64,000 bases of DNA, from contig CP000067.1 of NCBI GenBank assembly GCA_000002445.1, positions 512,001 to 576,000 on the forward strand. The letters are read 5' to 3'. Positions within the stretch are counted from its first letter, which is position 1. Each line of letters begins with the position of its first letter. The translations under genes and the position numbers were made by a program. Under the pieces are notes generated by a model. That model worked only from the letters and a program-made list of their open reading frames with translations. It was not told where the DNA came from and made no database searches. The stretch is from Trypanosoma brucei (lineage: Eukaryota). This document shows, piece after piece, positions 18,623 through 35,823 of this stretch.

Positions 18623-20616
18623 CGCAAAAAGTATGCGGCACTTTATCAGAAAAAAAAATGTTTATTTTAGCGGAGATCTCAGTACACCCCGCACCTGGTT
18701 CCGGTTGTGCTCTGCCCTATTTTAATTTACTATGGCCCTTTTTCTCTTATTGTCACCCTCTAAATCATACAACTTGCCTGGCCGTTCTCACTCCCAACGC
18801 CTTATTTTCACCCTTACAGGAGCCTCCTCCGCCTCGACTTTTCCTTTCTCCCTTGTGTCCTTCCCGCAACTCTTCCGGCAACCTAATGTTTTGGCTACCT
18901 GTGGACAAGAGTTCTCGAATGCCGAGTATATTTGACACACAAACTACAATCTCCAATGGTTATGCGTAAATATTGTCACAGTATACCTTAGCTCTTAAAA
19001 TAAAAATCAAAGAAGATGGCAAGCGAACGTGAAGCGTTAAACAGCAACGTGATGCATCCATACCGAATATGCCAAGTTTTGTGCCAACAGCGCGGGTGAT
19101 CCCACCACTGCAACTGACTCCACGGTCAAGGGTGGTGCAAATAAATCAGCTCAAAAGCCAACAAAGGGGTCAGTGAGGGTAAAGACAAGATATCTTTTCG
19201 TCCCAACACAAAATTAGACGTTAAATACCGGCCTCTTGGCAGTCATTTACAGGAAATAACGACTGTTAAGCAGTAATGACACAGTGCAGTCCATATTTTC
19301 AGTCCCAAGAAATAATCACATAACTCATTTGAGCACGCGCCCCCGTAACACCTAATTTTAAGTGAGCAGACCATCCATAACTAGTTAGTAGTAGCGCCCA
19401 TATTATCCAATGGTAGTCGAGACAGGGTTGGAGGAGGGCGTCGCAAGACGAGGGAAAGCAGTTTAAAAAACGACATGCCATCCATGGTGACGAAGCAATC
19501 CCTCAACCCATCAAGCAATACCATGGAGAGCAAGAACAAAAGAAATTTTTAGCAGCGGACGAGCCAATAATTTGAGGCTTCGCCTCGTGGCGACAAGTGC
19601 CCAAACTGTACATAAAGCACGTGTCCATCATATCTTATTTAAGGAAACGGCAACACAAACCGCAAACAAAACAAAAGTAAAAACACAGAATATAAATGTA
19701 CACGAGTTCCCCCCCCCCCGCTCCCCGGTAGAGTCCGTCGCTTGATTGGAATTCCCGGGTAGTGACGGTTGGGATCCCCAACAAAAGCAGCACACGACTC
19801 TCTCATTCGCACTATCTCAACACCGTGCCTGCACCATGGAGCATTATGTCCAAATACTCCACCGTGGCACTAACGCGTCCCGCCACTCATATAAAAACAA
19901 ATGCAGCTGTGATACGCAGCGGTGACGATTCTCAACAGCACAGATGATGTATCGAGCCGCCGCGTTGTGCTTGAGTGATATTCCACAAGAGCTGTCCGCC
20001 CGCACGGATAATGTGGTACAAACGAACAAAAGAGGTAATGTACCTTGCATCTGAAAGAAGATATGGGGGATCACATGTCATCTACACCTTTTTCTTATAC
20101 AAAACAGAATAGAGTGGAAGAGTACAAAACCAATGGAAAACAATGAAAAATTATCCATCTTTGCACATGGAAATAATAATTCTCAGTCGATTTGGATCGA
20201 GGTCCCCATACGTAGGGAAAGCATTGCTGGAAAGTAGTGGAGTTGTCTGGTGAGCCACGACATACATATCGTCAGTTAAACTGAATTTCGAGTAGCACCA
20301 ATGCCATACTACCGATCTAGGAATTAATGTCCTGTTGCAAAATAAAAATAAAAAAGATGCACAAATAAACCTTCTTCTCTCCCTCCCATATATTAAAAGA
20401 TGGCATAGAAAGATAAATTCGCTCTCCTTTTCGTTCGGTTCGAAGAACTAAGAGATCAAATGATAATTTGAACAAGAACATAAGTAGTCCTAACTCTAAA
20501 CAATAAACAAATATATATATGTACCACAACCCCTCAAATTCTCTACTTTAAGAACGCATTATATATTAAAGGGTGGGAGCAAAAACTAAGGGGGGTTATC
20601 CCTGATTTTCCTTTCT

Positions 20617-23337
20617 CTAATGGGTATTCATAGCCATTAGAACATCAACGCAGTGGAGACTCTCTGGGCTGTTCATTTCCACCCTTTTTTGTAATTCTTT
20701 AAAGCGAATGTTATCTTCTTCTATTTGCGCCAAGGTTGGCGTGGATAGCATACCGAAGTCATCACTTTGTAAGGTGACCTCCACCTCCGCCGCCCGCCTT
20801 GCATCCCGTGTTCCTGGATTTTGAGCAACAATCGCGACGCGTTGACGAGGTACACCGCGGTGAAGGGTAGCCATGGTAAAAGCCGCGTCACCGACATGGT
20901 GCTCTCGTGAATTCCCCTTGGATTTGTAAAAAACGTGGAGTGTAATAACGTCTTCGTCAGGTTGAGCAAGATAAAAGTAAAAAGTCTCATTAAATCTTAT
21001 AGCAGAGCTTAATTCCTTGACAGAGGTTTTGTACTTTTCCTTCACGGATTTTACCTTTATAACGACGTATCCAGGCTCAATAATCGGACGTCCGTTCTTC
21101 ATTAAGTCCCTTAACTCAACAATCGTAACTGCGAGGTGGGCTCCGGCTGCAACGGCGTTCTTTTTTTTATCGGCTAGATGGGGAGACGCCGGCGGGTAGG
21201 CGAGTTGCTCCATAGATCGTCTCCGGGCACTGCGCCTGGTGCTTCTAGAATTTCTTCTTGATTGGTGGCGTTGACCCTCCTGTCGCTCATCTTTAATAGA
21301 AACAAGTTGCTTCCACAGTCCATCATTTGCCTCTCTCAAAGCGAACAGCTGATCATTTAATTCTTGAAGCTTCTTATCCCTCTTTTCTGCGACCTCGGAC
21401 TGCTCCTTTTGTGCGAGGGCCTCTTCAAGTCTTCTCATTCTACTCTCAATCCCACTCCCCCTCATTGGTTCACCTTGAACAATGCCCAGACCGTCATTGG
21501 TCAGATGCCTCTTTAAAACGCTTAAAGATTCCTGAAGCTCATGTATTCTATTCTCCTTACTTTTGTTAGCATGCCGCAAGTCAACGATCTCATTACTAAG
21601 GCGATTCTTCTCTGACTGAAGAAGCTGCAAGCTATTTTGTCGCTGTTCCGTCTCTTTGTAAAAGTCTTGCAGTGACATACGCCTCATTTTCCTTTTCGCT
21701 TCATCTTCCTCCGACCATGCTGTCTCCAGGGATCGCATAAAATCCTCAGTCGAGTCCAACTTATCTTTCAAAAACTTATCAATGACAGTTGCTTCAGAAA
21801 CTCCTCTCGTTCGGGGCCTCTGCTCATTTTCCCCATTTCCCAAATCATTGCTATCATGGGCCAACTCCCCCGCGGAATTATTCCTAGAGTTACGTAAAAG
21901 CAGACGCTGCTGAAGGGATTCGTTCTGCAAAAGTAGTTTGGCTATTTCCGCCTGATACTCACTCCTACTGGATTCACTCGCAGCCAGTTGCTCCTCATTC
22001 GCAGCTTTCAGAGAGGAAATTTGCCTTGTATACTCGAGCAATGAATCACGGAGTTGCTCATTCTCATCTAGAACCGCCTTCATTTCATGTACATCGTAGC
22101 ACCTGGAGTCTTTTTCTCTGTTGATATTGTATCCTTTCTGCAAGGAAAGCTCCTTCTCTGTGGAAACAAGGGCAATTTCTAGCTCCTTCACACGCACCTC
22201 AAGATCGTTGTATTCCTCTTCGGCACGCGAGTTCCGAAGGTGAAGGTGTTCGATTTCCTTATGGAGCTCTTCATTTTCCCTCATAAGTAATTCATTCTTT
22301 CTGCTAATGTTACCATTGAGCACTTCGAGTGATTGGATCCGGCTCTCCCTTGAGGCATCACTATCATCAATTTCGCTCACTTTGTCGTCAACATCATCCA
22401 CTGAGGGGTCGCCCAGGCGCAACTTATTCTTCATGCGGCCTGGTTTCCTCTCTTCCCGGAAGACGGTGACTTCGTGCTTGAAGGAATCCAACTGATGTTG
22501 TATTGCCCGGTAAACATCGCCCCCAGTTCCAATATTATTGCCTTGAAGTGTGCTTATCTCGACCCGTAACGCGGCCTCCATTTCCCGCCACTCACGCTCC
22601 TTCGCACGATAACGTTCCTCAGCAAGCTGTAGTTTCTCCTCGAGCTCGGCAATATCTTCCTTAAGAAGGGCCTGCTGAAGATGTTGATTGCTTCCACGGG
22701 TCTTCACGTCCCAGTTCTCTCTCTGTTGGGCAGTGCCATCGAATCGCTTTACGGACGCAAGCAGCTCTTCATAATCTTGAAGGTTTCGGGATCTTTCGTT
22801 TTCCCAAGTCTCTTTTGCAAGAAGCCATTGATGCTGCACTTCATGAAGTTGTTCCTCCAGCTCTGCGTTTCTTTTCTTTAGTAGTGACACTTGCAGGTCA
22901 TTTTTTTCCTGTTGTTCATTTATATTTTTACATCTTTGGTCAAGGTGGCTTTCACGCTGTTGAGCCTTATTAAGTAACCCCCGAAGCTCATGAACTTCCG
23001 AACGCAGAGAACTGTTTTCTTCAATTAGTTTAACTGCTTCGGCTCTAAATGAAGTTCCTGATGTATCAGCAGTTTCCCCAGATTTCAACTTCATGAGTAA
23101 AGCGTTATTTTCTTCCTCAAGGACCCTCGCATTTCTGTTCGCAAGAATCAGCTTTCCTTCAACATCGCTCAGTTCCTTTAGCTGTTGTCGTAAGTCCCTG
23201 AGGCGAACCTCTTGCTCATACTCGTTGAGCTCCTTGGCGGCAAGTTGTTCCTTCAGACTGGCACAAAGATCACTGAGCTCATCTATTGATTGTCTGTCAT
23301 CAAAGATAGGCTGCTGACCAAAATCAACCTGCTGCAT
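20617..23337 (-). CDS. CC2D: Coiled-coil and C2-domain protein (906 aa); flagellum attachment zone (FAZ) filament protein CC2D
   Basis: The N-terminal ~650 aa is coiled coil. The C-terminus has a C2-domain-like β-sandwich (…HLAVTIVELRDLMKNGRPIIEPGYVVIKVKSVKEKYKTSVKELSSAIRFNETFYFYLAQPDEDVITLHVFYKSKGNSREHHVGDAAFTMATLHRG…). This architecture and the ALBA3/4-adjacent position match T. brucei CC2D as I recall it. Confidence 0.75.
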   Translation of the reverse strand: MQQVDFGQQPIFDDRQSIDELSDLCASLKEQLAAKELNEYEQEVRLRDLRQQLKELSDVEGKLILANRNARVLEEENNALLMKLKSGETADTSGTSFRAEAVKLIEENSSLRSEVHELRGLLNKAQQRESHLDQRCKNINEQQEKNDLQVSLLKKRNAELEEQLHEVQHQWLLAKETWENERSRNLQDYEELLASVKRFDGTAQQRENWDVKTRGSNQHLQQALLKEDIAELEEKLQLAEERYRAKEREWREMEAALRVEISTLQGNNIGTGGDVYRAIQHQLDSFKHEVTVFREERKPGRMKNKLRLGDPSVDDVDDKVSEIDDSDASRESRIQSLEVLNGNISRKNELLMRENEELHKEIEHLHLRNSRAEEEYNDLEVRVKELEIALVSTEKELSLQKGYNINREKDSRCYDVHEMKAVLDENEQLRDSLLEYTRQISSLKAANEEQLAASESSRSEYQAEIAKLLLQNESLQQRLLLRNSRNNSAGELAHDSNDLGNGENEQRPRTRGVSEATVIDKFLKDKLDSTEDFMRSLETAWSEEDEAKRKMRRMSLQDFYKETEQRQNSLQLLQSEKNRLSNEIVDLRHANKSKENRIHELQESLSVLKRHLTNDGLGIVQGEPMRGSGIESRMRRLEEALAQKEQSEVAEKRDKKLQELNDQLFALREANDGLWKQLVSIKDERQEGQRHQSRRNSRSTRRSARRRSMEQLAYPPASPHLADKKKNAVAAGAHLAVTIVELRDLMKNGRPIIEPGYVVIKVKSVKEKYKTSVKELSSAIRFNETFYFYLAQPDEDVITLHVFYKSKGNSREHHVGDAAFTMATLHRGVPRQRVAIVAQNPGTRDARRAAEVEVTLQSDDFGMLSTPTLAQIEEDNIRFKELQKRVEMNSPESLHCVDVLMAMNTH

Positions 23338-26300
23338 TGTTAACCTTCTTGAATACTTCCTAATGTATTATTATTAACCTTCCGAAGACACAACAAAAAA
23401 ACAGGGCAATTTTTTTTAAAAAGGGACTCTTTTTTCGCTCAACACTCCTGAATATAACTTTTTCAATATTTGATAAACAAAGGCTTTATCCTTTTTCAAA
23501 TTAAAACGAATACACATAAATACCACACGCCTACATATGTTAAGACATAAATGAACAGCAGCGGATATGCTTGGGTAAAACGATAAAGACTTTTTACTAC
23601 TATACAAAAATGAGCAAGCTCATCAAACAAGTCATACCCGAACGCCGATGAGCATTTCTCGGCTGTCAAACCGGTTACAAAAATAAGTTGAGAAGGTATT
23701 TAAAAATGAAATAAGCAAAATTTTGGCAGGTAGGACACAAAAATATAAGAGAAAATGCCTCCACACGTACGCGTGCATGCATCCACATCCGCGGCAAATA
23801 ATAAAAAGAACAACGGGGGAAAAAGGTAGCAACACCCATCTATAACTAATAAACACCAAACAAATACTCTTAAATAGCAAATATTGTAACATCAAACGAA
23901 GCGATTACTCAATAAGCAACAATGCTTAAACAAATTCGCCAAATAGGTAAGTGCATTTATACTAATGTGACACTACAAAAAGCAAAAAAAAATGTACCAA
24001 GTTATGCCAAACACCTCTCAATGCGCTAAAAGCACCAAATTCCCACAAAGCAAGGAAACAGAGATGATAATAACAAATGCTACATTCAGTACTGTTTTTC
24101 GTATCCGCCAGCACAAGAAAGGCTTCACTGACAAAAATAATATACAACCACGGTAAATAAAGCAAAGGCTATATGTACAGAAGAACATCCACATCTTAGT
24201 ATTTTCATGTGAAAAAAAATGCTTGCAACAGCCTAAAACAATCAGGGACGCCACGGCCCATAGTGATCATCAAAACATTCCTTAGTACCTAGACAACAGT
24301 CAAAGGTTCAAAACAAAGCCAACACGGCCACAGCATCAAATGGAACATGAATGGGTTTAAATGAATTAAACAGTAACAAAAATAAGAAGGTATATCTCCC
24401 CATATCCTAACCAAAAAAAAAGAAGTGTAAAAAAGAAAAAGTGATCACAAAGTTGATATGCAATAACCGTATGTTTCTCTACCCTAACAAACTCGAGGTA
24501 AAACTACGGCACAGTTCGTCCGCACATCCAACGAACAAAAGAAGTACAAAATAAGACCCCACATACCTCCGTAGCTCCCGATACCTAATACAAGAAATGC
24601 GTCAGAGTTTTTCTCCATTTGCTGTGTAAAACGAAAACAGAAAAAACCCCGTAACAGCACCCAGATCTCATGCTTAGCGGCTATACAAAAGAGACAGCGA
24701 CAAGAAATACACCAACCCAAGCAACCTTACAGCTACCCTTCACCGCCAAGTGTCAGAATCCTTACGCACATCCCCCCAAGTAGCCCCTATGCCACGATCG
24801 CCCACTGGGAACCCCCAGTGGGATTGGCAGCGGCGCATACAAATCCCACCGCCCCCTTCCCGACGTCAGTCTAAATATAGCAAGAGTTGCGTCGAAAAAC
24901 AAACCAATGAGTTAAGGGATACCGACGCGGACTTTCCATCTCTTTCTCCTCCGGGCTCCTTTATACGCGGCCGGAAGCCACCCACTCTCCCCCCCCTCAC
25001 ATAAGCCTAAAGAAACTCAGCGTACACAACTGTCAATGCCGCCACCGCTCAAGCAATGCAGCACGCAGGCACAGACAGCACCACCTTCGCCACGCCAGAG
25101 AGCCAACAGACGCAGACCGCTGTCCCGGCGCACCTCTTCTGCTCCAGCGTTGCGTTGCGCCCTCAGAGGGAGGCGACAACATCCCGCTATGGGGAAGACA
25201 CCACACACATACAGAGCGACCACACCGGCAATGCGAGACGGCAGAACACGGTGGCACGTTGAGCCAGACACTATTACCACGAGTCGATGAGAGCCGACAG
25301 AATCAACAAACAAACGTCACCGCCGAACGCCACGGGGCGCCGCTCACGACCGCTGCCCAGCAGCTTGCGGAAAGACCATCAACGGCTACGTAAAGTAAAT
25401 CGAAACTAAAACCCTAGCCGAACGACCCTGGCGGCCGCCGTCCCAGAGAAGTGTGCGGCCCCATCACCTCGCGATCAGTGACAGGACAGGCCACGCGCCC
25501 ATGCACGGCACAGCAAAAAAAAAGCCAAATGTTCTATTGCGAGGGAAACCCAACATTGGAAAACTTGGCGTTCCAGATGTCTTAACCGCGACACGGCAAC
25601 GACAGGGACCCGGAAGCAGAGGCTCAACTCACGACCCTCCTGTGCAGCACCGACAAAGACGCACGGTCTCATCGCAACGGAAAACCCCGCAACAGCATAG
25701 GAGGTCGCCGCTCGTCACCAACCTAACGGAGGACGGCCCCAACACAGCGCGGTCCGTACTACCCAACCAGTGACTCCATTATGGCAGCGAGCCGCTCCCT
25801 TGGTTCTCGGTTACGAGGGGAAAACTCTCAGTTCTGGAGCACAAAGCCTCAGCAGAGAGTAACCCGGCCCAACGACGGCACTCCAGCCCCACAAGGAAGC
25901 AGCTGGCTGTCGTGGGTTGCGTGGATGTCCCTTTATGTCTCTTACCGTATAGGGTCTCACAAACACGTTCACAAGGGGGCGAAGGCATCTCCCTTGCATT
26001 TACTCCTCAGCATTCGCTCTGTCACAAAATGTAGTTTCACTTAGAAACCTGCTATGAGACCCGGGCCATCACTTCGGAATGTTTTTTTTGGGGGTGTGGA
26101 GAGCATTGTAGACTACGTTTACCGTGTTCTGCGGTTGGGTTTGGCGAAGCGGCTTCGAAAGAAGCTTTACCGCTGGGTAACAACAAGCAAAAAATAGCTT
26201 ACTGGCCGAAAGGTGGGCTAAGAAAGGTTCTTTCCGGGCCTTGCGCTAAAACAGTTATCTTCACTTGTGGCAAAAGATTTACGCAGCGCTTTTTACTGTA

Positions 26301-29300
26301 GAGGTTGAAAAAGCTTTGCAAACGGCACTGGATGGTATGGGTGTGATATTTCAAGTGCGGCAAAAGTTTGAGAGCGCCGAACAACGGTGGCAGTTTGTCC
26401 CCATTTTTTTTTCCACTTGAGGTGGCAGAGCACCAATAAAAAAAAGTTGTTGTTCCGTTCGGCCCTAGAAATATTTTAGCCTGCTAAAAAAGCACGCTGC
26501 GGAGCCACCAAAAATAAAAAATAAAAGACTGTCAGCATAAACATTTTATTTCTGTTCTACCTTTCAAAACACCAGAAAAAAGTTACTATCCCGGAGTCAG
26601 TGGTTCTCAATTTGCAGCGGACACCGTGCGACACCATTTTAAGGGCGGCGCATTGAAAAATTTCCGATATCCTCTCTCTGTTGCAGTCACCGCATTCCTC
26701 CTCATACAAACTAAAAACCAACGTTTACACGACTAACTGTTCAACAACCCTGGTGGGGCCAAACATCTCGCGGGATTTCAGTGTGCGCTAACTTGCTCAG
26801 GAAACAGAAGCAATTACTATAATTCCGAAGATTTTTGGAAAGCCAAACTTTGAGCTACCCTTCCCCCGAGTGGCACTGTCACTGCACTACCATCTCAAGG
26901 GTTGTGGGAGACAACTGTGGAAACATATGGCAACCGACGAGCCGGCGAAAGCCCCAGCAGCTTAGCAGTGACGCCATCCCCTTTATTACCTTTCTCAAGG
27001 GATTTGCTAGAGTGAACTGCAACAGGGTTTCGCGATAAATTCGAAAACTTTCCGTAGAAATGTCGCTCATCCCCCACCCACCTTCCGCTGTCAGAGGACA
27101 ATCGAGGGAAGCCCGTTCAGGAAAATCGCTCTCCCGCACAAAAAAAATTTAATTGAGGATAGGCACATCGTGCGACATCACCCGACCCTCCACTGTTAAT
27201 AACCATAGTGAACTTCCTTTTTAACAAGTGTCACAAGACGCAGGTTCCAACCCCCAATGTAGTTTCTTCGCAAGAGACCTAACGATTGGTAGGAGGTACA
27301 AAGATTGCCCAGCAAGGGGACAGAACGCCGCGGCTGCGCCGGAGACCCGCCATTATTTCAAAAGGGTCACCGCCAAGAAAGCAAGACATGGGGTGTTTTT
27401 TGGGGTGCTTGAAGAGCCACTTCACACTAGCACTCGGTGGCTCCCAACACGGGCAAAAGGAGAAATCCGGAAGTATTAGGAAACCACCCTTCTTCTACTG
27501 CAAAAGAATTCTCTAAGCACACAAAAAGTGTGCGAAAGGCTAAATATCCCCCCCTTCCATAACCGATGGCCACTTTCTCCACGTAATGGCGGCGAAATCA
27601 AGAGATTTTCCGGACGTCCTAACTTACCCTTGCTCGCAGCAAACACCTACAAACGACGGTCTGGCGTCATGAGACAGCGTCACAGCAGCAGAAAGTACTT
27701 CAGACGTCTCAGAGAAAGGCATGACAGGTAGTTTACGGAGTAATTAGGGACCGCCACGCACGCGCCGCCCCTCCGGGGACGACCTACCTTTCCTCTGCGA
27801 ATCGGTGATGGCCCTTGGCTCGTAGCAGATCCCTGCCTTTGGCGGTTGTAGCAGGCAATGCAAAAAAAAAAAAGAAAACGCCGGTACAGTCCACCGTGCA
27901 TCTGGCCCCGGAAGCACCTTTTTCCCCAGAGCCGTGCTGAACCATCCCTCCCCCAGGGAAGGACTCCCCACGCTCCCAACAGTCCTCTTTGACGGTGTTT
28001 CTGTTTCACGTTATTTTTTCACTTGTCGCAGATCTCGGTCAAGGAGGGGAAATGATGAGGAAGATTTAAGGGAAGTGGAAATCAAAACGCTCCTTCACCC
28101 TACTTTGTGAAAGTTTGCTTGTTCAGGGGTGTGATGTAAGGCTAATGTGTTCTATCCTGCAAGGGTGCATGTGTCACTGACACTAGTGGTGGACATGAGT
28201 CTGTGTGGTGTCAGTGGTTGCCGCCAGGTGAACTCACACCCAGGGGGAGGGTAAACGTTCCACATTGCCACCGTAGGTGCCTCGGCTACGCTGTTAAATG
28301 GCCACTGCGTCCTGCTGTGTTTGGGTACCCCCTCTTCTTCAAGGGTTGTCCGTTTGCTTTGCTCAGGAGGTGGTGCCGTATGGAAAAGGGGGAATTCCGT
28401 GAGTGAAAACTCATAAAACGAGCACTCCACACCGTGTTTTTCGGAGGCTGATATATCGGCTGGAAAGTCTCACCTTTTCAGCCTTCCCGAAACCGGTCTG
28501 ACTCGCTCGATGTTACTGCCACACCCCTCGTTTGTTGGCCGCTTCTTTCAGTGCCGCTCAAAGGAAATGGCCGGGGATCGGTTATGGGAAGACAGGAACA
28601 ATCGGTTCATAACGATTTTTGTCAGTGAGTGGGGTGGGGTGACGGCTCTTTCCACCTCCACGGCTGTCATTTGGTGTCTGCACTCAATTTATGGACTCAG
28701 GGCTTTGTGCCGATGTTACCCCTTTAGGACTGCGAACAAAACGCGTGTTAACACGAATATTTGTTTCATCCTACAGGTTTATAAGTGCTTCGCCATCTCT
28801 GCGCGCTGCCTCTATGTTTCTCCCTTTTGGATGTGTTGCTTTTCGGCCCCTGACTGCCAGCCAGTCGGGCCCCTTTGTGGTGTTGATTTCGTTGTCACGT
28901 GCACGGCAGAAGTGCCTCGGCTGGGCAGACGTTCGTGGGCTTTGATCGCTTTGTTTTTGGGCGTGTACGTCCTCGTAGTCCGGGGTCTCTTCTGCAGTTG
29001 GGGGGGGGGGACCTCCAGTATTTGACTTGGTGATAGCAGCTGGTTTGTGGGTGGAGCAGTGTTTGCCCGTTTAGTTGGGGTACTCGTAGTGTGAAAAGGG
29101 TCACTCCGTCTCTGAGCTCCTCCGATCGGCACCGCGCCGCATATGCTACGGAGGACTCGCCGTCACTATTGAGTTGGGAAGCTCCGCACGGCATTGCGAT
29201 TTTTGCCGCTTCGTAGCCGAGTCTAAGCGTCGATGAAATGAGGCCCTGGGAGGTGGGTCCAGTTTGGTTGGACCACTTCTTCTTCATTTTGGTCCTCACA

Positions 29301-32300
29301 GCACGTGAGTTGTGCACGGCTGCGGGGGGCGAAGTTCCACGTGCCTTGTTACGGGTGGTCGCCTGCGTCGTCGGCTGTGGCTCGATTTTCACTCCTTTTT
29401 GGCGAGGAAAGTCGGGGCGTATATTGTTTGAGTACCGGGTGGGGCACGTGCCTTTTCTCTAACCGCGGCACGCCAGCGGTTCGCGCGTCCCGGGCTCCAC
29501 ATTCGTAGCTGTGAATTTGGGCTCAAAGGTCACGCTGCTATTCTCCCATGCTGGGTGGTTTAGTTACTGTTGCAGCAATTTGCTTGTTTAGGACAGACAC
29601 AGGCGCCCATTTACGGTAGTTGTTGCCCTCGCCTCGCTTGCGTTTGTGGGGTACCGCCAGTGAGCAGCGATGGAGGTCCTGCGCAGTAGCAGGCGGGGGT
29701 GTGCTCTTGGCATTTGGTGTGATATGCGCGGGTGATTGCTGGGAGCGGTTTTCGTGACGTTTCCGAATGAAGCTATTTATTTCTGTCTGTTGAAGATTAT
29801 TTCCATTTTGCAACGACTAATAAAGTTGTTATCAAAATAGCCCAGGTAGAAGTGCTTTCAACCCTTTTAGGCGGCGGTGCGCGGTGCTTTGGATGCCAAG
29901 ACCAATGGAATTGTTGCCGCTAAGTTGCCAGGGCTCTGACGTACTTCATTGAGCGTCGCGCTTCCATATTTTTTTTGTTTCTTGCAGGGACCGGTGCCAA
30001 AGCATTGAAGCATTTGCCGCATAGTCCTGGATCGGTGCTGCATGCACCCGGGGGTTGCACCCTGTAGTTAGCGCGTGTTCCGAGAGGAGGTGGTCAGTGG
30101 TTTCCTTTTCCGTCTTGTGAGGGGAATTGAAGTTCCCATTTCCCATATGTAGTGTGGGTTAATGATGCTGTTGAATCTTGCCCACGGATTCTCCGACGAA
30201 TTTGTGGAGCACATTTTTTCAGTGGTTGTTCGTTGAAATAAAGGGGGTGTGGACATACGGTTTTGCTATTGGTGTTTCGGAAGACTGCTTCTCCATACTA
30301 GAAGTGGGCTGTTACAGAGTCGTTCCAGTTCTCTGCAAAACACGGGAATCGGTCAACATTCTGTTTCCGAACTGTGTTTACAACACTTGCGTGTTCGGAC
30401 TGGTCACTGGTTGTTTAGTTGCAGCGTTTACGAATGGGGTCGCGAGAAGTTGTGTCCCCGATCGTACTGCCGTGACGTGTAACGGGGCTGTGCTTCGATG
30501 CCCACCGCGGGAACCCTTCTGCATGGCGCAGGTAATACCCTTTTGCTTTTACTGGCGTCACGTTGTCGGCTGATTGAGCACCTTTAACAGATGTCCGCCC
30601 ATTCGAATTGAAAGGTTTTGGACACCCCCTAACCGATCAGTTTATGCAAACGAGCACAGGGGCGTAATGTGACTTTTCGGTTTGTGGAACCTTGGCTCAC
30701 CCGGGGGATATGGGCGACCAAGGCTATCAACGTATTCCACCGTTAAAGGGACAACAAAATTGCCTTTAATATATATTTTTTCACGTCCCTAGATAAATGA
30801 ATGTGTCGACAACTACCATTTACCTAGTGTAGAATACCCGTCTCTTTGGTTGCATGGGCTGTGAGGAGGGGGAGCTGTGCGTGGAAGGTGAAGCGACGGG
30901 CGCGCGCGCTAATAAACGTATTTCTGCCGGAATGAAGAGGATATTCACGCTGTCATCTAGCTCGGAGAGGGGGTTAAACAAGAGCAAATGAAGCTTAATT
31001 AAATCACCAGAGATCTGGAAGTTACAATCAATTATTCTGCTGAACCGCATCCAGTTGAAGTAACCTGCGAAGAGTTCTGGAGTTAGCCGGGAGTCGGCTG
31101 TCTTTGGGATGGGGACGGAACACCGAGGGCTTTACAGTATGCTATCTGGGTGATATGACCTAATTACTTTTGTACGTCGAGATGGTTTGGGGATGCCTGA
31201 TATGTTAACATGCCAATGTGATGGCTCCCTCGCTCCATTCTGCAGGGGAGATGTGGGTGAGTTTTGTTCCGGTGGAACAACTTGTATCTTTTTTTTTTTG
31301 CATTGTAAGGGAATGCCAGAAGCTACTTCCTCTGTGCATGGAATAGGATACCCCCGATTATGGACTGTGATGGGTATACTGTTGAGAACTGCAAGGGTGA
31401 CCCAGAAACAGCGAGGGGATGTTACAAATGTCTCCCCGTCCCCGTCCCGGAACGGTGAATTTTGGACCCTGACTGCAAAATCCTCCAGGGGGCGTGTTCG
31501 GGCCGGGGTTTGTTAGCGCCCACTGACATGTGTCAGATGAGATAGTTCGCCTGTTTCGTATTTTGCCATACGGCTGGACCTCTCTGACTGTGATACCGAT
31601 ATGATGGAGCTATTTCCATGTAGACACAACTGATCTGTGTTTCATCCGAACGTCTCGCTGAGTCAAGGGAGAGTTCAAGCGGATGACCGTAATTCATTTA
31701 TTTCTTTATGTGAAAATGTACTTCGTGGCATTGTGCTTTCCAATGCAGTTGGATGTCGTTATCACACAGGATTTTTGTTGCTGCGGAATTACACCTATTG
31801 GAGCTGTATTTCTTGTGCGACTTGATACGATCGATTTTGCGGTGACGCTACCCTTCCTCTCTGAGTATGGCGCCGCCTACGTAGATATTGTCGGCAGAAC
31901 GGGGGATTGTCGGAGGGAAAATGGTGTGGTCGGGGCATCTGCTGCGGAATACTTGAACGGGGCGCACCATGTTGATTCCGTTGTTTATGTTGGCAATGTC
32001 AGAACCCTGTGGATGCGATACAGATCCGCCACGCAGACTTTTGAACTTAGTTGCTTACTGTCTAGCCCCACCAAAATTGCGAGTTATCTGCTAGGTAAAG
32101 CCTGGAATTGTACTGCTAGCCAGAAAGAAAAAGGACGGTATTAAGCACCAAGTTGACCTTGCAAGTTATGAATCCGACCTATGCATAAAAGAATTATTAG
32201 GTACAAAAAATAATTCGAACTTTATACTTTTTTGGCACTGCCATTTCGTGGTTTGCTTACAAATTGTGTAAATGGATAATATGGGAGTTGTCACGGACCC

Positions 32301-34878
32301 ACCGCTGGTGGACGCGGTGATGTTGTTCCTCCGATCCTACATGTACTAGGAGAAGATACGTTGTTATTTCACGATTCGCCAAAGCCACTTTTTTTTTCCT
32401 TCATTGGTGTACCGGGTTTGTGTGAATGGCTACGGTGAGAAGGTGTGTGATGCTAAAGGGTGATCGCCTGAGGTGCAGTTGTGCGTGACGAGTCTCCCTG
32501 TTGGTATTTGTGAGGTTGAGCGTACGTGACGTTGCCTTTTCGCTTTGAGAAGTTTTCTGTTTGTTTTTCTGTATCCTTTAGCATTATTAGTATTTATCTA
32601 CCGTCTAATTCTGGCATGCTATAAAGATATTTAAGACATCATGGGGAGGGGAGCTTCACTCTTATTCTTATTTGCTAACCGAAGGACATCGGGTTTGTGA
32701 ATCCCGACCGGTGAATATCTCTTTTTATTTTACCCTATCGCGTTTGATACCTGATGTTTGGTTGAGGTGCCGCTTTCTGGGGGGGGGGGGGGATTTGTAC
32801 ATGATTTGAGGGTCGTTCTCGTACTGAGTGTAAAGTTCTGTGCGGGGTGAAAGATTGTGTGCACGGCGAGAGATGCAGTTGTCTGGGGCAACGATAATAT
32901 TTACGAACACTACGCTATTTTATTAAACTATGACGTTGTAGATCACGAACATGTTGACGAACATTTATGTGTCTGGGAGTTGATTGTAGAAGCACATGTA
33001 ACTTTGACAAATAATTGCATCGGTGACTTGATAGTTTGTTTTGAAATTATTGGCGTGAGGCGGCGTGTACAGATCTGAATTGTTTTCATTACGTAGTACC
33101 ATAACAACTGCGGGTACGGTTTAAGTGTTAGTGTGGAGCCACCATTGGCATTAGCTAGCTTTTCCGTGGCCTCCCCCGAACCCGCTGTTCAACCTGAGGA
33201 CGCGCAACATGTGGGCGTTGAACCTTGCGGCGATGCAGCGTAACAGAATCAAGCCGTGTGCGAATGACGATCATCAGGGTGGTCGGGAAAGGGGTGGTGA
33301 AGAGAGATCGCTTCAATGCTTCGTTGTGAGGAAAACAATAATGCTTTGTGGACGTCAATGTTTGAAGTCTTTATTCACGCTACGGTCAATTGTCCTTTAG
33401 CGGCTGCTGGGATATACATTGTTTACTTGGGGAGAGATCATTCTTAAAAATGAGCCATCGCATTTGCTGCCGTGGCCGGCGCCACGATTTTTTTTTCCAC
33501 TGTCGATCATGCCGATGCCGGTTCACTGGAGTCTTGTCATGTCTGTTCCAAATAACAAGGAACAGCTGTTTTCATGCGATATTTGCCGCTGCGATTTTTC
33601 ATGCTCCTGAAGGACGGTTGATATGTATGTAGGGTATCCGCAGATTATGCGGCTCACGCGTAAATGTTTGACTGCAACTCATGTGTTATTACTCTCATTA
33701 AATTGGATTTTTGTCGACATCACCAAAAGCGTTCGTGCAGAGGTGCGTCTACGAAGTCCAACTGTTTACTGCGTTGTGAAATACCCGAGAGAAGACTTCG
33801 TTTTCACTTTGACGCGTTTTTTTTTTTGGGGGGGGGGAGATGTGTATAAATTGGTAGCTTCTGTTGCCCAACGAGGCCAACTTCGTTGTCCCGTGCGAAA
33901 TGTGTCATTCTGAATAAGGTGGCATTCTTGAACTGGGGGTGTCTTGTTCCACCTTCATTGTGACCATGTTCCCCCGTTAAATGATTTTTTTTTTTTGAAA
34001 CCAAGCCATCGTCGACTGGGAAGGGTTGGAGGTCGGTATCGCGATAGGTTTGCTAGTGCCTGCGAGTTGTACGTTAGGTCTACCTGGGAGCGTACCTCTC
34101 AATAGATGATGTGGAATGGACATCTGAGGCGCTGGTATCGAGGGATTCTTCCGGTGGTATCAGCGCCCCTGAGTCATCATTATTGATGCCCCACCTATTT
34201 GTTGTTGAGTTTACTTTTCCTTTCCCCTCTTAAACTGTTTAATTAATTGTCAAGAAGTATTTTGGAGAGGAGTGTAAGTCCAGTGGTAAGGAAGTGAGAT
34301 GCAATGGTTCCTTCCCGCGAGCTGTCCATACCTCTCTATACTCGTGGAAGAAACAATCGGGCGGAGTAATTAACGCTTATTTTTTGCTTGTGCCATATTT
34401 TTTTTTTTGGTTCTGCACTTTCCCTCACCTAATCTAGGCCAGTGTTTACGTTGTTACCCGGACAGTTCAAAATTTTGCTATGTACTTCCTCCTTAGCCCT
34501 CGTGTTTCCCTTGTACCTATAACGGAACTGCTGTGGTGCCTATAGCTTTTCCTTTTTTCATATATACTTTTTAAGTTCGCCAACGTGTGCTCCAAAGCAC
34601 TTGTGGATCGACCCACAAGCGGTAGTAGCTGCCACGAACTCAGTAATTAAAGAAGAGGAGAGGTGATAACTGACCTTTAGTTCAAGTACGGGTAAGGTTT
34701 TGCTTCAGGAAAAAGCGGCCGGAGAGGGGAGATATAGCAGAGTGAAGGTTGGGGTGTCGCAACCCTAGGAAAAGATTGTGTTTGGCTTCGTTTGGAGGCT
34801 AGTCGTTTGTACCTGAGATCGATCGTGCGCTGCGGTAGAACCCTTTTTGTAGTGTTCTACGGTAGCTTGGGTTGAAAA
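23338..34878. promoter_or_regulatory. Divergent strand-switch region; putative RNA Pol II transcription start region for both flanking gene arrays
   Basis: The minus-strand array begins at 23337 and the plus-strand array at 34879. The ~11.5 kb between them has no convincing ORF. The left half is C/A-rich on the plus strand, so the leftward-transcribed strand is G/T-rich. The right half is G/T-rich on the plus strand. Long G-runs lie on the plus strand at 29000–29010, 32779–32792 and 33828–33837. A C-run lies at 24989–24996. Confidence 0.7.
32779..32792 (+). repeat. G14 homopolymer
   Basis: A direct read. It is one of four ≥10-nt G-runs on the plus strand in or next to the rightward-transcribed half of the strand-switch region. 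The others are 29000–29010, 33828–33837 (preceded by T11) and 35962–35973. Confidence 0.9.
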
Positions 34879-35823
34879 ATGCATCAACACGGCAAGACAT
34901 CGGGAACAGATGGTAGCGGGGCAACAGTTTCCCAGTCTTCCTCGGGTTTCATGGAGACTCCGTGGCGCATCTTTGAGTACGGTGTGGCATCGGAGCAGGG
35001 CTCCCGGAAGACGATGGAAGATCAACACGCCATGGTGGCAGAATCGTTTCCATTCTTTGCCGTTTACGATGGGCACGGCGGCACGCAATGCGCTGAATTT
35101 CTTCGGGACAATCTCCACACGTTCATTTTTGGCCAGCCGGAGATCGAGACCGACCCCGAGCGTGCAACACGTGCCGGGATAGCGGAGGCCGAAAATGCCT
35201 TCCTGACAAAGTGTGCTGATGAGAAAATTGAGTCGGGCAGTACTTGTGCTGTGGCCTTGGTAGTAGATGACACTCTGATCGCGGGGAATGTCGGCGACTC
35301 GGAGATAGTGCTGTGTCGTGCCGGCGCACCCATTGTTCTGTCAACAAAGCATAGCATTCAGGACAACGTGTCTGAGGGGGAGCGCGTGAAAGCCTGCGGT
35401 GGTAGGATAATAAGCAACCGTGTGGGGCACCCCAAATTTAACCCTCAGTTACTGAGCCTCGCCATCACACGTGCTATAGGTGATGCTGGTTTTAAGCTAC
35501 GCGAATTCACTGATGGCAAACCGTCCGGCGTTATTGCCGACGCGGAGACACGATCCACAAGATTGACGGATGACGACAAGTTTCTGATCATTGGTTGCGA
35601 CGGATTGTGGGATGTTATGTCGTACGAAGCGGCAGTGCAACTCTGCTCTCGCCTCGCCTCTGAGGGCGAAACCCCGAAGGCCATTGCTGGTAGTCTGTGT
35701 CAGGAGGCTTTAAGGCAAGGGAGTACAGATAATGTCACATGCATCTACATTAATATAAGAGCAAAGAGCTCAGCCCCGGGCTGTGGACAGCTCGGCAGTG
35801 GCGACCCTCTACACAATATGTAG
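34879..35823 (+). CDS. Protein phosphatase 2C (PPM family), 314 aa
   Basis: Contains PP2C motifs: FFAVYDGHGG (metal-binding motif 1/2), GDSEIVLCRAG, DGLWDVMS, and the acidic GSTDNVTCIYI tail motif. Confidence 0.85.
   Translation: MHQHGKTSGTDGSGATVSQSSSGFMETPWRIFEYGVASEQGSRKTMEDQHAMVAESFPFFAVYDGHGGTQCAEFLRDNLHTFIFGQPEIETDPERATRAGIAEAENAFLTKCADEKIESGSTCAVALVVDDTLIAGNVGDSEIVLCRAGAPIVLSTKHSIQDNVSEGERVKACGGRIISNRVGHPKFNPQLLSLAITRAIGDAGFKLREFTDGKPSGVIADAETRSTRLTDDDKFLIIGCDGLWDVMSYEAAVQLCSRLASEGETPKAIAGSLCQEALRQGSTDNVTCIYINIRAKSSAPGCGQLGSGDPLHNM

What the first reader, a model, noticed from the sequence alone, without database searches (positions are those of the whole stretch)
23338..34878. Divergent strand-switch region with strand-oriented GT-richness and G-runs (putative Pol II start sites)
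Both gene arrays point away from this 11.5 kb interval. In T. brucei, divergent strand-switch regions are the RNA Pol II transcription start regions. They are marked by H2A.Z/H2B.V and acetylated H4, carry strand-specific G-runs, and contain GT-rich elements that can drive transcription. Here the strand composition flips near 27–28 kb: the plus strand is C/A-rich to the left and G/T-rich to the right. That makes each outgoing sense strand GT-rich. G-runs of 10–14 nt sit on the plus strand at 29000, 32779, 33828 and 35962. A C8 run sits on the plus strand at 24989–24996; the C10 (4745–4754) and C11 (19719–19729) runs lie in intergenic regions inside the minus-strand array, outside this interval. 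The 28.1–29.5 kb segment is unusually GC-rich and has overlapping 100–170-aa ORFs on both strands that do not look protein-like. This is a candidate for a decayed retroelement, or simply promoter-proximal GC-rich DNA.
Basis: partly seen in the sequence, partly recalled or inferred. Interest (0 to 1): 0.5.

Follow-up and report, generated by a model that had tools for sequence, protein, structure and literature searches.

The report
Known trypanosome transcription-start region with dead gene
This is the already-mapped divergent transcription start region on Trypanosoma brucei chromosome 4 (between CC2D and a PP2C phosphatase). It is ordinary except that its right-hand part carries the decayed, still-transcribed remnant of a BIG-type ARF-GEF gene that other trypanosomes keep intact.

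Summary
The window is T. brucei TREU927 chromosome 4, Tb927_04_v4:512001-576000. The interval lies between Tb927.4.2080 (CC2D, minus strand) and Tb927.4.2110 (PP2C, plus strand).

The gene arrays diverge, both skews flip at about 28.0 kb, and the G-runs are where stated. One C-run coordinate is off by 10.

Kolev et al. 2010 already list this locus as a pair of divergent Pol II transcription units, so the core interpretation is supported and already known.

Caveats:
- Sense-strand GT-richness here falls within the range of ordinary intergenic DNA in the same units.
- Three of the four G-runs lie inside processed transcripts.
- No retroelement signature exists.

New detail: T. cruzi, T. melophagium, T. 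theileri and T. rangeli have a switch region of only 0.8-1 kb here. It is followed by a 1,905-aa BIG-type Sec7 ARF-GEF and a second PP2C copy. In T. brucei, two collinear plus-strand blocks (32920-33144 and 34045-34236) still match that gene beyond shuffle controls. Both fall inside the published low-abundance transcript Tb4.NT.17 (32582-34468).

So about half of the "gene-free" interval is probably a dead first gene. The 4.7 kb left arm remains unexplained.

The parts
20617..23337 (-). Tb927.4.2080 (CC2D; coiled-coil and C2 domain FAZ protein). First gene of the minus-strand unit. Published splice-acceptor site at 23378 (5' UTR 41 nt).
   Evidence: ORF and Pfam C2. Identity and coordinates from PMC2936537 Tables S3/S12 and PMC4827413. 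AG at 23380-23379 on the minus strand.
23338..28036 (-). Left arm of the strand-switch region. Non-coding and GT-rich on the minus (sense) strand. Presumed minus-strand transcription start region. Origin of its 4.7 kb length unknown.
   Evidence: Sense GT skew 0.170. Wedel 10-mers: 24 on the minus strand against 4 on the plus strand in 23-28 kb. No Pfam domain in six frames. No tRNA, Rfam hit or repeat. No match to orthologous loci.
24989..24996 (-). C8 on the plus strand (G8 on the minus sense strand). It is the longest sense-strand G-run in the left arm.
   Evidence: The orthologous T. melophagium region has a C24 run at the equivalent side.
27981..28036 (.). Compositional switch point: the minima of the cumulative GT-AC and G-C skews.
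27765..27776 (-). 12-mer CCGGAGGGGCGG in the GC-rich core next to the switch. Also present on the plus strand in the T. melophagium and T. cruzi cores. Probably coincidental.
   Evidence: One match against 0.01 expected in the window. Absent from T. theileri and T. rangeli.
28510..29025 (+). ORF annotated Tb927.4.2090 ('hypothetical'). Most likely not a gene.
   Evidence: The 516-nt length matches the CDS length implied in PMC4022737. No Pfam hit. The G-run inside it varies (G11/G11/G15/G10), giving ORF lengths of 516/516/521/504 nt across strains. No splice site is listed between Tb927.4.2080 and Tb4.NT.17 in Kolev Table S12.
29000..29010 (+). G11 run. It is the only G-run at the 5' edge of the plus arm and a candidate marker of the 5' end of the plus-strand start region.
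   Evidence: GGGGGGGGGG is by far the most coding-strand-enriched 10-mer in the 5'-most fifth of start regions (132 against 17; Wedel Dataset EV1).
29035..34750 (+). Projected footprint of the decayed BIG-type Sec7 ARF-GEF gene. This is extrapolated from the diagonal of the two matching blocks. Only the C-terminal third is detectable.
   Evidence: Diagonal offsets of 29011-29041 for full-length orthologues. Synteny in T. cruzi, T. melophagium, T. theileri and T. rangeli. Pfam finds no Sec7/HUS/HDS here.
31683..32144 (+). 153-aa ORF, presumably Tb927.4.2100 ('hypothetical'). It is the first annotated ORF of the plus unit in Kolev Table S14. Probably not coding.
   Evidence: no Pfam. Called in the T. 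b. gambiense and T. equiperdum assemblies. No splice site listed. The gene-number assignment is inferred.
32582..34468 (+). Published novel transcript Tb4.NT.17 (1886 nt, 0.4 RNA per cell). Trans-spliced at 32582/32627 and polyadenylated at 34468. It is the first processed RNA of the plus unit.
   Evidence: PMC2936537 Tables S7 and S12, coordinates 544582-546468. Polypyrimidine tract and AG precede both acceptor sites.
32920..33144 (+). BIG relic block 1. Matches residues of about 1297-1371 of trypanosome BIG (just after the HDS domain) and is interrupted by stop codons.
   Evidence: tblastn 36.2-38.5 bits, E about 1e-4. Profile hit with independent E-value 1e-4. No shuffle out of 200 reached it. 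Reciprocal hits to T. theileri and T. melophagium BIG.
34045..34236 (+). BIG relic block 2. Matches residues of about 1665-1737 and is collinear with block 1.
   Evidence: Profile hit with independent E-value 0.045. Spacing is 1098 nt observed against 1083 nt expected. HSPs from 6 of the 7 orthologues used as queries. Chain score 53.1 against a null maximum of 46.2.
32779..32792 (+). G14 run inside Tb4.NT.17. In the L001 and T. b. gambiense assemblies it reads GGGGGTGGGTGGGTGGGAGGG, a canonical G-quadruplex motif.
33817..33837 (+). T11 followed by G10, inside Tb4.NT.17. Length varies between strains.
34576..35823 (+). 5' UTR and CDS of Tb927.4.2110 (PP2C; CDS 34879-35823). Splice-acceptor site at 34576.
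   Evidence: Pfam PP2C 2.6e-54. The acceptor site is 546576 in Kolev Table S12. Six short Logan contigs begin within about 90 nt of it, and L004 begins at 34575.
35962..35973 (+). G12 run in the PP2C 3' UTR, outside the interval.
   Evidence: Contig L004 runs from 34575 to about 38089.

Best explanation
The interval is the divergent strand-switch region of T. brucei chromosome 4 between Tb927.4.2080 (CC2D) and Tb927.4.2110 (PP2C).

Shown by published experiments: RNA polymerase II starts transcription here in both directions, and the locus is catalogued as two divergent units. The first splice-acceptor sites are at 23378 (minus strand) and at 32582/32627 then 34576 (plus strand).

Inferred: initiation is dispersed over two start regions that meet at the compositional switch near 28.0 kb. 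Each has a G/T-rich sense strand. The plus one begins around the GC-rich core and the G11 run (28.0-29.0 kb).

The unusual 11.5 kb size is largely historical. In T. cruzi, T. melophagium, T. theileri and T. rangeli the switch region is 0.8-1 kb, and the plus unit opens with a 1,905-aa BIG-type Sec7 ARF-GEF and then two PP2C copies. In T. brucei that first gene has decayed. Its projected footprint is about 29.0-34.75 kb, and only two C-terminal blocks are still recognisable.

Polymerase still reads through the footprint. The old 3' part is trans-spliced and polyadenylated into the rare RNA Tb4.NT.17. Polyadenylation at 34468 sits about 110 nt upstream of the PP2C acceptor site, so it may be coupled to PP2C trans-splicing (inference). 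RNA from upstream of 32.58 kb has no acceptor site and is presumably degraded.

The two annotated 'hypothetical' ORFs in the interval are chance ORFs.
For: Identity and coordinates: PP2C is 100% identical in T. b. gambiense and T. equiperdum assemblies. Subtracting 512000 reproduces the CDS ends and puts an AG before every published acceptor site.

Start sites: Kolev Table S14 and text; Kelly 2012.

Polarity. The same layout (CA-rich, GC-rich core, GT-rich) appears in the 0.8-1 kb orthologous switch regions of other trypanosomes, including a C24 run in T. melophagium.

Dead gene:
- Synteny in four species.
- tblastn E about 1e-4 and a profile E of 1e-4, plus a second block within 15 nt of the expected 1083-nt spacing.
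- The top nine HSPs are all on the plus strand, at the two block positions; the full-length orthologues put them on one diagonal.
- Nulls: reversed queries reach at most 23.9 bits, 60 shuffles at most 30.8 bits, 200 shuffles at most 29.6 bits (single) and 46.2 (chain). Observed values are 36.2 and 53.1.
- Reciprocal hits. The same relic is present in three other T. brucei-group assemblies.
- Stop codons sit inside the aligned blocks.
- No BIG orthologue from T. brucei, T. congolense or T. vivax appears in a 5.8-billion-protein search that found T. cruzi, T. rangeli and Angomonas orthologues among others. PP2C and CC2D of T. congolense and T. vivax are in that database.

Transcription of the relic: Tb4.NT.17 at 32582-34468.

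Non-coding character: the interval diverges at 9-15 substitutions per kb against 4-5 per kb in the PP2C CDS. A frameshifting G-run polymorphism lies inside 'Tb927.4.2090'.
Against: - I did not see TSS, H2A.Z or H4K10ac tracks for this locus. The exact start positions are inferred from a table that names only flanking ORFs.
- The relic is detectable in about 140 of 1,905 codons. Pfam finds no Sec7, HUS or HDS domain in the right arm. After removing the two blocks, the diagonal is not enriched for weak hits.
- T. vivax (and, judging by its proteome, T. congolense) also lacks the gene, and no relic is detectable in T. vivax. A single ancient loss would be expected to erase all similarity. Either the losses were independent or we are seeing the luckiest surviving blocks.
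- There is no room for the second PP2C copy, so extra deletions must be assumed.
- The 4.7 kb left arm has no counterpart in other species and is unexplained.
Confidence: 0.8

Rival explanations
1. The interval is a plain, unusually long promoter or strand-switch region with no gene remnant. The similarity to BIG is a chance match in G/T-rich DNA.
For: Only two short blocks match. Profile bit scores are low (7.8 and -0.9). Pfam sees no domain. No signal remains on the diagonal once the blocks are removed. T. vivax shows nothing.
Against: The match is at the syntenic position, on the expected strand and in the expected order and spacing. It exceeds all 200 shuffles for both single and chained scores and exceeds reversed-query controls. 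It is reciprocal. Most of the 7 orthologues used as queries reproduce each block.
Confidence: 0.12
2. The GC-rich 28.1-29.5 kb segment, or the left arm, is a decayed retroelement (ingi/RIME/DIRE-like) inserted into the switch region.
For: The 24.5-26 kb and 28-29.5 kb stretches are GC-richer than their surroundings. The left arm is 4.7 kb against about 0.5 kb in other species and has no explanation. In T. vivax the orthologous interval does contain a duplicated GC-rich element.
Against: No reverse transcriptase, endonuclease or any other Pfam domain in six frames of 23338-29337 at E up to 1. No direct, inverted or tandem repeats. No similarity to the T. vivax element. I could not search a T. 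brucei repeat library.
Confidence: 0.08
3. Tb927.4.2090 and/or Tb927.4.2100 are real protein-coding genes, so the switch region is shorter (23.3-28.5 kb) and the rest is ordinary gene-plus-intergenic DNA.
For: Both ORFs are annotated and intact in four T. brucei-group assemblies. Kolev Table S14 names Tb927.4.2100 as the first ORF of the unit. Tb927.4.2090 appeared as a low-confidence RNAi-screen hit.
Against: No Pfam family. No similarity to any orthologous locus. No splice-acceptor site is listed for either. The Tb927.4.2090 tail is frameshifted by a polymorphic G-run (521 nt in T. b. gambiense). Substitution density equals that of the surrounding non-coding DNA, 12.6-13.6 per kb against 4-5 per kb in PP2C. 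Antisense ORFs of the same size overlap.
Confidence: 0.05
4. The interval's main role is something other than transcription initiation, for example an early replication origin or a chromosome-architecture element that co-localises with the switch region.
For: From my own knowledge, ORC1/CDC6 sites and origins in T. brucei map to unit boundaries. The G-runs, and a G-quadruplex motif in some strains, could matter for that.
Against: Nothing in the sequence speaks specifically for it. There are no AT-rich tandem repeats like those at centromeres. This reading would add to the start-site function rather than replace it.
Confidence: 0.15

Closest known systems
T. brucei divergent strand-switch regions / Pol II transcription start regions (Siegel 2009; Kolev 2010, PMC2936537; Wedel 2017, PMC5579346)
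   Same: Divergent units. G-to-C and T-to-A skew flip. G-runs and GT-rich 10-mers on the sense strand. Listed by name in Kolev Table S14. Roughly 5-7 kb per arm, like the roughly 10-kb H2A.Z domains described.
   Different: Nothing in kind. The minus arm lacks a G-run of 10 or more (only G8). The plus arm overlies a dead gene, and its first processed RNA is a pseudogene transcript.
Orthologous CC2D|BIG strand-switch regions of T. cruzi, T. melophagium, T. theileri and T. rangeli
   Same: Same flanking gene on the left. Same polarity layout (CA-rich, GC-rich core, T/GT-rich).
   Different: They are 0.77-0.98 kb long and are followed by an intact 1,905-1,916-aa BIG-type ARF-GEF and two PP2C copies. 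The T. brucei interval is 11.5 kb, with the gene decayed and a single PP2C.
Transcribed unitary pseudogenes / pseudogene-derived long non-coding RNAs
   Same: A formerly coding gene with no intact copy at the locus, disrupted by stop codons, still transcribed and processed (Tb4.NT.17, 0.4 copies per cell).
   Different: In a polycistronic genome, transcription of the relic needs no promoter of its own. It is a by-product of position, so persistence of the RNA says nothing about function.
Mammalian CpG-island dispersed bidirectional promoters (a comparison drawn by Kolev 2010 and Wedel 2017)
   Same: Broad, bidirectional initiation without a focused core promoter, and a GC-richer core at the divergence point.
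   Different: The units are polycistronic, mRNA 5' ends are made by trans-splicing, and strand choice is associated with GT-rich sense strands.
   Same: Only that degenerate copies can give GC-richer patches with non-protein-like ORFs.
   Different: No RT or endonuclease similarity and no repeats. Not supported.

Membership tests
T. brucei divergent Pol II transcription start region pair | Two gene arrays transcribed away from a common non-coding interval | tested here: met
   First acceptor sites at 23378 (minus) and 32582/34576 (plus) from Kolev Table S12.
T. brucei divergent Pol II transcription start region pair | G-over-C and T-over-A excess on each sense strand, flipping inside the interval | tested here: met
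   Flip at 27981-28036. Arm skews of 0.16-0.17. However, ordinary intergenic DNA of the same units reaches 0.02-0.26.
T. brucei divergent Pol II transcription start region pair | Runs of 10 or more G on the coding strand, concentrated at the 5' end of each start region (Wedel Dataset EV1) | tested here: inconclusive
   Plus arm: G11 at 29000, 1 kb from the switch, plus G14 and G10 further in. Minus arm: only G8 (C8 at 24989). Enrichment over other non-coding DNA is not significant in this window.
T. brucei divergent Pol II transcription start region pair | Strand-asymmetric GT-rich 10-mers (Wedel 2017 list) | tested here: met
   24 minus-strand against 4 plus-strand hits in 23-28 kb, and 27 plus against 2 minus in 28-36 kb. 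Similar densities occur at 37-39, 46-48 and 61-63 kb.
T. brucei divergent Pol II transcription start region pair | Enrichment of 5'-triphosphate (primary) transcripts | not testable with these tools
   No read data are available here. The literature lists the locus as two 'Divergent' units defined with such data (PMC2936537 Table S14).
T. brucei divergent Pol II transcription start region pair | H2A.Z/H2B.V, H4K10ac and BDF3 chromatin domain | not testable with these tools
   No ChIP tracks or start-region coordinate tables were held in the library.
T. brucei divergent Pol II transcription start region pair | Sequence-specific promoter element of Cordon-Obras et al. 2022 | not tested
   The paper is not held and I do not recall the motif reliably.
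Pseudogene of the trypanosome BIG-type Sec7 ARF-GEF | Position orthologous to the intact gene (between CC2D and PP2C, plus strand) | tested here: met
   The projected footprint of 29.03-34.75 kb fits between the switch and PP2C.
Pseudogene of the trypanosome BIG-type Sec7 ARF-GEF | Sequence similarity to orthologues beyond chance, in collinear order | tested here: met
   Two blocks. No shuffle out of 200 reached the observed scores. Reciprocal hits. This covers the C-terminal third only.
Pseudogene of the trypanosome BIG-type Sec7 ARF-GEF | Recognisable catalytic Sec7 domain or HUS/HDS domains | tested here: not met
   Pfam on the three plus frames of 29000-34878 found nothing at E up to 1. 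The BIG profile finds nothing before position 1304.
Pseudogene of the trypanosome BIG-type Sec7 ARF-GEF | Reading frame disrupted | tested here: met
   Stop codons lie within both aligned blocks. The longest ORF in the footprint is 153 aa.
Pseudogene of the trypanosome BIG-type Sec7 ARF-GEF | No intact orthologue elsewhere in the genome (unitary loss) | tested here: inconclusive
   No T. brucei, T. congolense or T. vivax protein appears among BIG hits. Only annotated proteins were searched. A paralogous large Sec7 protein, Tb927.4.2200, is retained.
Non-LTR retroelement relic (ingi/RIME/DIRE) | Reverse transcriptase or endonuclease similarity | tested here: not met
   Six-frame Pfam of 23338-29337 and plus frames of 29000-34878 gave no hit.
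Non-LTR retroelement relic (ingi/RIME/DIRE) | Multiple copies in the genome, poly(A) tail, target-site duplication | not testable with these tools
   No T. brucei genome or repeat library is searchable. No repeats occur within the window.

The most novel reading that the evidence does not exclude
The BIG-type ARF-GEF that opens this transcription unit in other trypanosomes was lost in African (salivarian) trypanosomes. T. brucei, T. congolense and T. vivax would then retain only the divergent Tb927.4.2200-type large Sec7 GEF. Pipaliya et al. 2019 describe loss of BIG as rare outside highly reduced parasites. The dead gene now serves as a roughly 5.7 kb transcribed leader and start-region platform for a 294-kb transcription unit. 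Its 3' remnant is the RNA Tb4.NT.17.
Probability: 0.45. Interest if true: 0.5.

Novelty: already known. Interest (0 to 1): 0.25.

Why it matters
As a transcription start region it adds nothing new. The locus is in the published catalogue and has been used as a model unit.

The side result has modest value in three ways:
- It explains why this switch region is more than ten times longer than its orthologues.
- It gives an origin for an orphan "novel transcript".
- It shows that start-region-like sequence features (sense-strand GT-richness, G-runs) can sit on what used to be coding DNA. That bears on whether these features are selected promoter elements or a by-product of transcription-associated mutation.

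It also flags a possible lineage-specific loss of a normally indispensable trans-Golgi ARF-GEF. African trypanosomes have a highly specialised endocytic and recycling system, which cell biologists could test.

Tried and rejected
- **tRNA and Rfam** (gathering threshold on the whole window; E-value mode on the interval): nothing except one chance bacterial sRNA hit at E 0.21.
- **Tandem, direct and inverted repeats** in 19-38 kb: nothing meaningful.
- **Bacterial promoter/terminator scan:** no different from shuffles and irrelevant to this organism.
- **Retroelement hypothesis:** six-frame Pfam negative.
- **Canonical G-quadruplex motifs:** none in the interval in this strain apart from the homopolymer runs.
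- **Conserved promoter-core motif:** the 12-mer CCGGAGGGGCGG is shared by the T. brucei, T. melophagium and T. cruzi cores. It is absent from T. theileri (sister of T. melophagium) and T. rangeli, and inverted in T. brucei, so I treat it as coincidence.
- **BIG relic in T. vivax:** none found in the 18.6 kb orthologous interval.
- **Further relic blocks in the N-terminal two thirds:** weak collinear HSPs exist (e.g. 30264-30350), but the diagonal is not an outlier without the two main blocks.
- **Spliced-leader sequence** in short Logan contigs L004-L009: not present.
- **Look-ups for transcripts carrying the 153-aa and 171-aa ORFs:** genome assemblies only, or no record.
- **Exact TSS or start-region coordinates:** the Kelly 2012 supplements do not list these genes, Wedel's supplements hold no coordinates, Staneva 2021 gives none in the text, and Cordon-Obras 2022 and the Pipaliya 2019 supplements are not held.
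- **T. congolense DNA for the locus:** could not be fetched. Its proteins are present in the database without contigs.

Full report
**1. What the window is**

The flanking proteins are kinetoplastid (Pfam):
- a FAZ1-conserved-domain protein at 2498-4336 (minus strand);
- a 4,455-aa repeat protein at 5255-18622 (minus);
- a 906-aa coiled-coil and C2 protein at 20617-23337 (minus);
- a PP2C phosphatase at 34879-35823 (plus).

The PP2C is 100% identical to genes in T. b. gambiense (FN554967.1), T. equiperdum and a third T. brucei-group assembly.

Kolev et al. 2010 (PMC2936537) give Tb927.4.2080 as 535337-532617 and Tb927.4.2070 as 530622-517255 on Tb927_04_v4. Both equal the window ORFs after subtracting 512000. 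The window is therefore TREU927 chromosome 4, 512001-576000. An independent check agrees. Every published splice-acceptor site I converted is preceded by AG and a polypyrimidine tract. The sites are 23378 on the minus strand, and 32582, 32627 and 34576 on the plus strand.

Tb927.4.2080 is CC2D and Tb927.4.2060 is FAZ8 (PMC4827413).

**2. Checking the observation**

- The arrays diverge as stated.
- GC skew changes sign between 27 and 29 kb. The cumulative G-C and GT-AC minima are at 28036 and 27981.
- All homopolymer runs are as reported, except that C11 is at 19709-19719.
- Runs of 10 or more are far beyond chance. Seven of eight put G on the sense strand; the exception is C11 at 61188.
- The runs are not significantly concentrated in the interval relative to other non-coding DNA of the plus unit.
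- Sense-strand GT skew is 0.161 (right arm) and 0.170 (left arm). Other non-coding DNA of the same units gives 0.109 and 0.144 pooled, with single segments from 0.02 to 0.26.
- I mapped the 157 10-mers that Wedel et al. 2017 found enriched on the coding strand of start regions (Dataset EV1). Minus-strand against plus-strand hits are 24 to 4 in 23-28 kb, and plus against minus are 27 to 2 in 28-36 kb. Equal densities occur at 37-39, 46-48 and 61-63 kb.

The polarity is real. It is mostly the generic composition of transcribed non-coding DNA. The one 10-mer specific to the 5' end of start regions is G10 (132 against 17 in Wedel's table). In the interval, only G11 at 29000 sits at such an edge.

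**3. Is it a transcription start region?**

I could not view read tracks. The literature answers for this exact locus:
- Kolev Table S14 lists "Tb927.4.2080 to Tb927.4.1220, minus, Divergent" and "Tb927.4.2100 to Tb927.4.3190, plus, Divergent".
- The text states that 5'-triphosphate reads were enriched "at every divergent transcription unit", with sense and antisense initiation.
- Kelly et al. 2012 chose Tb927.4.2110-3190 (about 294 kb) as a cleanly delimited unit for reporter insertions.
- Table S14 starts the plus unit at Tb927.4.2100, not Tb927.4.2090. This suggests the mapped plus-strand starts lie between about 29.0 and 31.7 kb. That is an inference: I matched Tb927.4.2090 to 28510-29025 by its 516-nt length and Tb927.4.2100 to 31683-32144 by position.

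**4. What else is in the interval**

There are no tRNAs, no Rfam families and no repeats. No Pfam domain appears in six frames of 23338-29337 or in the plus frames of 29000-34878. The retroelement idea finds no support.

The two annotated hypothetical ORFs look spurious:
- neither has a Pfam family;
- neither matches any orthologous locus;
- no acceptor site is listed between Tb927.4.2080 and Tb4.NT.17, or between Tb4.NT.17 and Tb927.4.2110, in Kolev Table S12;
- substitution density between strains equals that of the surrounding non-coding DNA (12.6-13.6 per kb against 4-5 per kb in PP2C);
- the polymorphic G-run inside Tb927.4.2090 (G11, G11, G15, G10) changes its length to 516, 516, 521 and 504 nt.

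**5. The unexpected part: a dead first gene**

I fetched the PP2C neighbourhood in other trypanosomes. T. cruzi, T. melophagium, T. theileri and T. rangeli share one arrangement:
- the CC2D orthologue on the minus strand;
- a switch region of only 0.77-0.98 kb;
- a 1,905-1,916-aa protein with HUS, Sec7 and HDS domains;
- two PP2C copies.

The large protein's best solved relative is a full-length Sec7/BIG-type protein (8ucq, E 2.6e-49), and it is much further from Gea2/GBF1.

The evidence that T. brucei carries a remnant of this gene:
- A profile of seven orthologues, searched against the six-frame translation of the T. brucei interval, hits only the plus strand. Positions 1304-1369 match 32947-33144 (independent E-value 1e-4) and positions 1665-1729 match 34045-34230 (0.045).
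- The spacing is 1098 nt against 1083 nt expected.
- With tblastn, the nine best HSPs all fall at these two places on the plus strand; the full-length orthologues place them on one diagonal.
- The best score is 36.2 bits. Reversed queries reach 23.9, 60 shuffles reach 30.8 and 200 shuffles reach 29.6. The best collinear pair scores 53.1 against a null maximum of 46.2.
- The search is reciprocal. The window's ORF fragment at 32851 hits the BIG genes of T. theileri and T. melophagium at residue about 1297.
- The relic is present in the other T. brucei-group assemblies and contains stop codons.
- The diagonal projects a gene start near 29.03 kb, just right of the G11 run and 1 kb from the skew switch. 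It projects an end near 34.75 kb, just before PP2C.

**6. The relic is transcribed**

Kolev Table S7 lists a "novel transcript", Tb4.NT.17, at 544582-546468 on the plus strand. It is 1886 nt long at 0.4 RNA per cell. That is window 32582-34468, which encloses both relic blocks. Its poly(A) site is about 110 nt upstream of the PP2C acceptor site at 34576. This fits coupled polyadenylation and trans-splicing, but the coupling is my inference.

Six short Logan contigs begin within about 90 nt of 34576. One runs 3.5 kb to about 38.09 kb. Their ends look like RNA-seq assemblies of the PP2C mRNA, though I did not verify the run type.

**7. Limits of the dead-gene reading**

- Only about 140 codons are recognisable. 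The Sec7, HUS and HDS domains are not.
- With the two blocks removed, the diagonal shows no excess of weak hits.
- No BIG orthologue from T. brucei, T. congolense or T. vivax appears in the protein database. T. cruzi, T. melophagium, T. rangeli, Angomonas and three further trypanosome orthologues do appear (T. theileri confirmed). CC2D and PP2C of T. congolense and T. vivax are present.
- In T. vivax the CC2D-PP2C interval is 18.6 kb, without detectable BIG similarity.
- If the gene died once in the salivarian ancestor, surviving similarity in T. brucei is surprising. The options are independent, later decay in the T. brucei lineage, or survival of the luckiest two of about 25 blocks.
- T. brucei keeps a paralogous large Sec7 protein 20 kb downstream (Tb927.4.2200, 54411-59468; HUS, Sec7 and a weak GBF1-like TPR). 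It is 26% identical to BIG in the Sec7 domain only. I therefore call the lost gene "BIG-type" and do not claim T. brucei lacks all such activity.
- Pipaliya et al. 2019 report that BIG is rarely lost in eukaryotes. I found no paper in the held library describing this loss.

**8. Conserved architecture**

The short orthologous switch regions share a layout:
- CA-rich on the left, with C24 followed by A17 in T. melophagium;
- a GC-rich core;
- T/GT-rich on the right.

The T. brucei interval repeats this pattern on a larger scale. In Angomonas, the FAZ-type gene, BIG and the PP2Cs are all on one strand, so there is no switch.

**9. Mechanism, with status**

Shown by published experiments:
- bidirectional Pol II initiation in this region;
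- the acceptor sites;
- Tb4.NT.17.

Shown here:
- polarity and the switch point;
- absence of genes, RNA genes and retroelement domains;
- synteny and the relic.

Inferred:
- the plus start region begins at about 28-29 kb;
- polymerase runs through about 3.5 kb of acceptor-less dead gene, whose RNA is discarded;
- it then produces Tb4.NT.17 and then the PP2C mRNA;
- the minus start region occupies 23.4-28.0 kb and feeds CC2D at 23378.

**10. Verdict**

The finding is correct and already known as a start region. The added value is the explanation of its length and of an orphan transcript. The left arm (4.7 kb against about 0.5 kb in relatives) remains unexplained.

Noticed in passing
window 5953-16361 (inside ORF 5255-18622, minus strand; Tb927.4.2070): The 4,455-aa 'antigenic protein' gene is mostly a tandem array of a 72-nt (24-aa) unit with 144/216-nt higher-order periods. 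There are about 145 copies at 74-85% match. This explains the flat composition over 6-16 kb.
   Followed up: partly
L018:1-3977 and L010:804-2695 (T. vivax SOPI01000559.1, record about 13.2-18.5 kb): The centre of the 18.6 kb T. vivax CC2D-PP2C interval holds an inverted pair of GC-rich elements. Each carries two ORFs (278/259 aa at 100% identity, 244/262 aa at 99.6%), arranged head to head with no Pfam match. This could be a recent inverted duplication, a mobile element or an assembly artefact.
   Followed up: partly
window 27765-27776 (minus strand); L013:1720-1731 and L012:1126-1137 (plus strand): The exact 12-mer CCGGAGGGGCGG sits in the GC-rich core of the switch region in T. brucei, T. 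melophagium and T. cruzi (expected 0.01 per window). It is missing in T. theileri and T. rangeli, and inverted in T. brucei.
   Followed up: yes
window 32779-32792: The G14 run of TREU927 reads GGGGGTGGGTGGGTGGGAGGG in the L001 and T. b. gambiense assemblies and G10 in T. equiperdum. G-richness and G-quadruplex potential are kept while the exact sequence drifts. All four G-runs vary in length between strains.
   Followed up: partly
window about 25367-25390: L001 and T. b. gambiense align as two pieces that overlap by 24 nt on the window. This suggests a short tandem duplication or indel polymorphism in the GC-rich part of the left arm.
   Followed up: no
L017 (Angomonas deanei LR877148.1): A FAZ1-domain gene, a 1356-aa gene, BIG and two PP2C genes all lie on the same strand. 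The strand switch at this locus is therefore not shared by all trypanosomatids.
   Followed up: no
window 54411-59468 (Tb927.4.2200): A second large Sec7-domain GEF lies in the same transcription unit, 20 kb downstream of the relic. It has HUS, Sec7 and a sub-threshold GBF1-like TPR, and is only 26% identical to the lost BIG-type gene within the Sec7 domain.
   Followed up: partly
window 61184-61198 and 61615-61636: A C11 run and C-rich G-quadruplex-type motifs lie on the plus strand within the plus-strand unit, which puts G-runs on the antisense strand. This is the one exception to the sense-strand G-run rule in this window.
   Followed up: no
L014 near window 35974: The T. equiperdum assembly has a run of N directly after the G12 homopolymer. 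Homopolymer lengths in these assemblies should therefore be read with caution.
   Followed up: no
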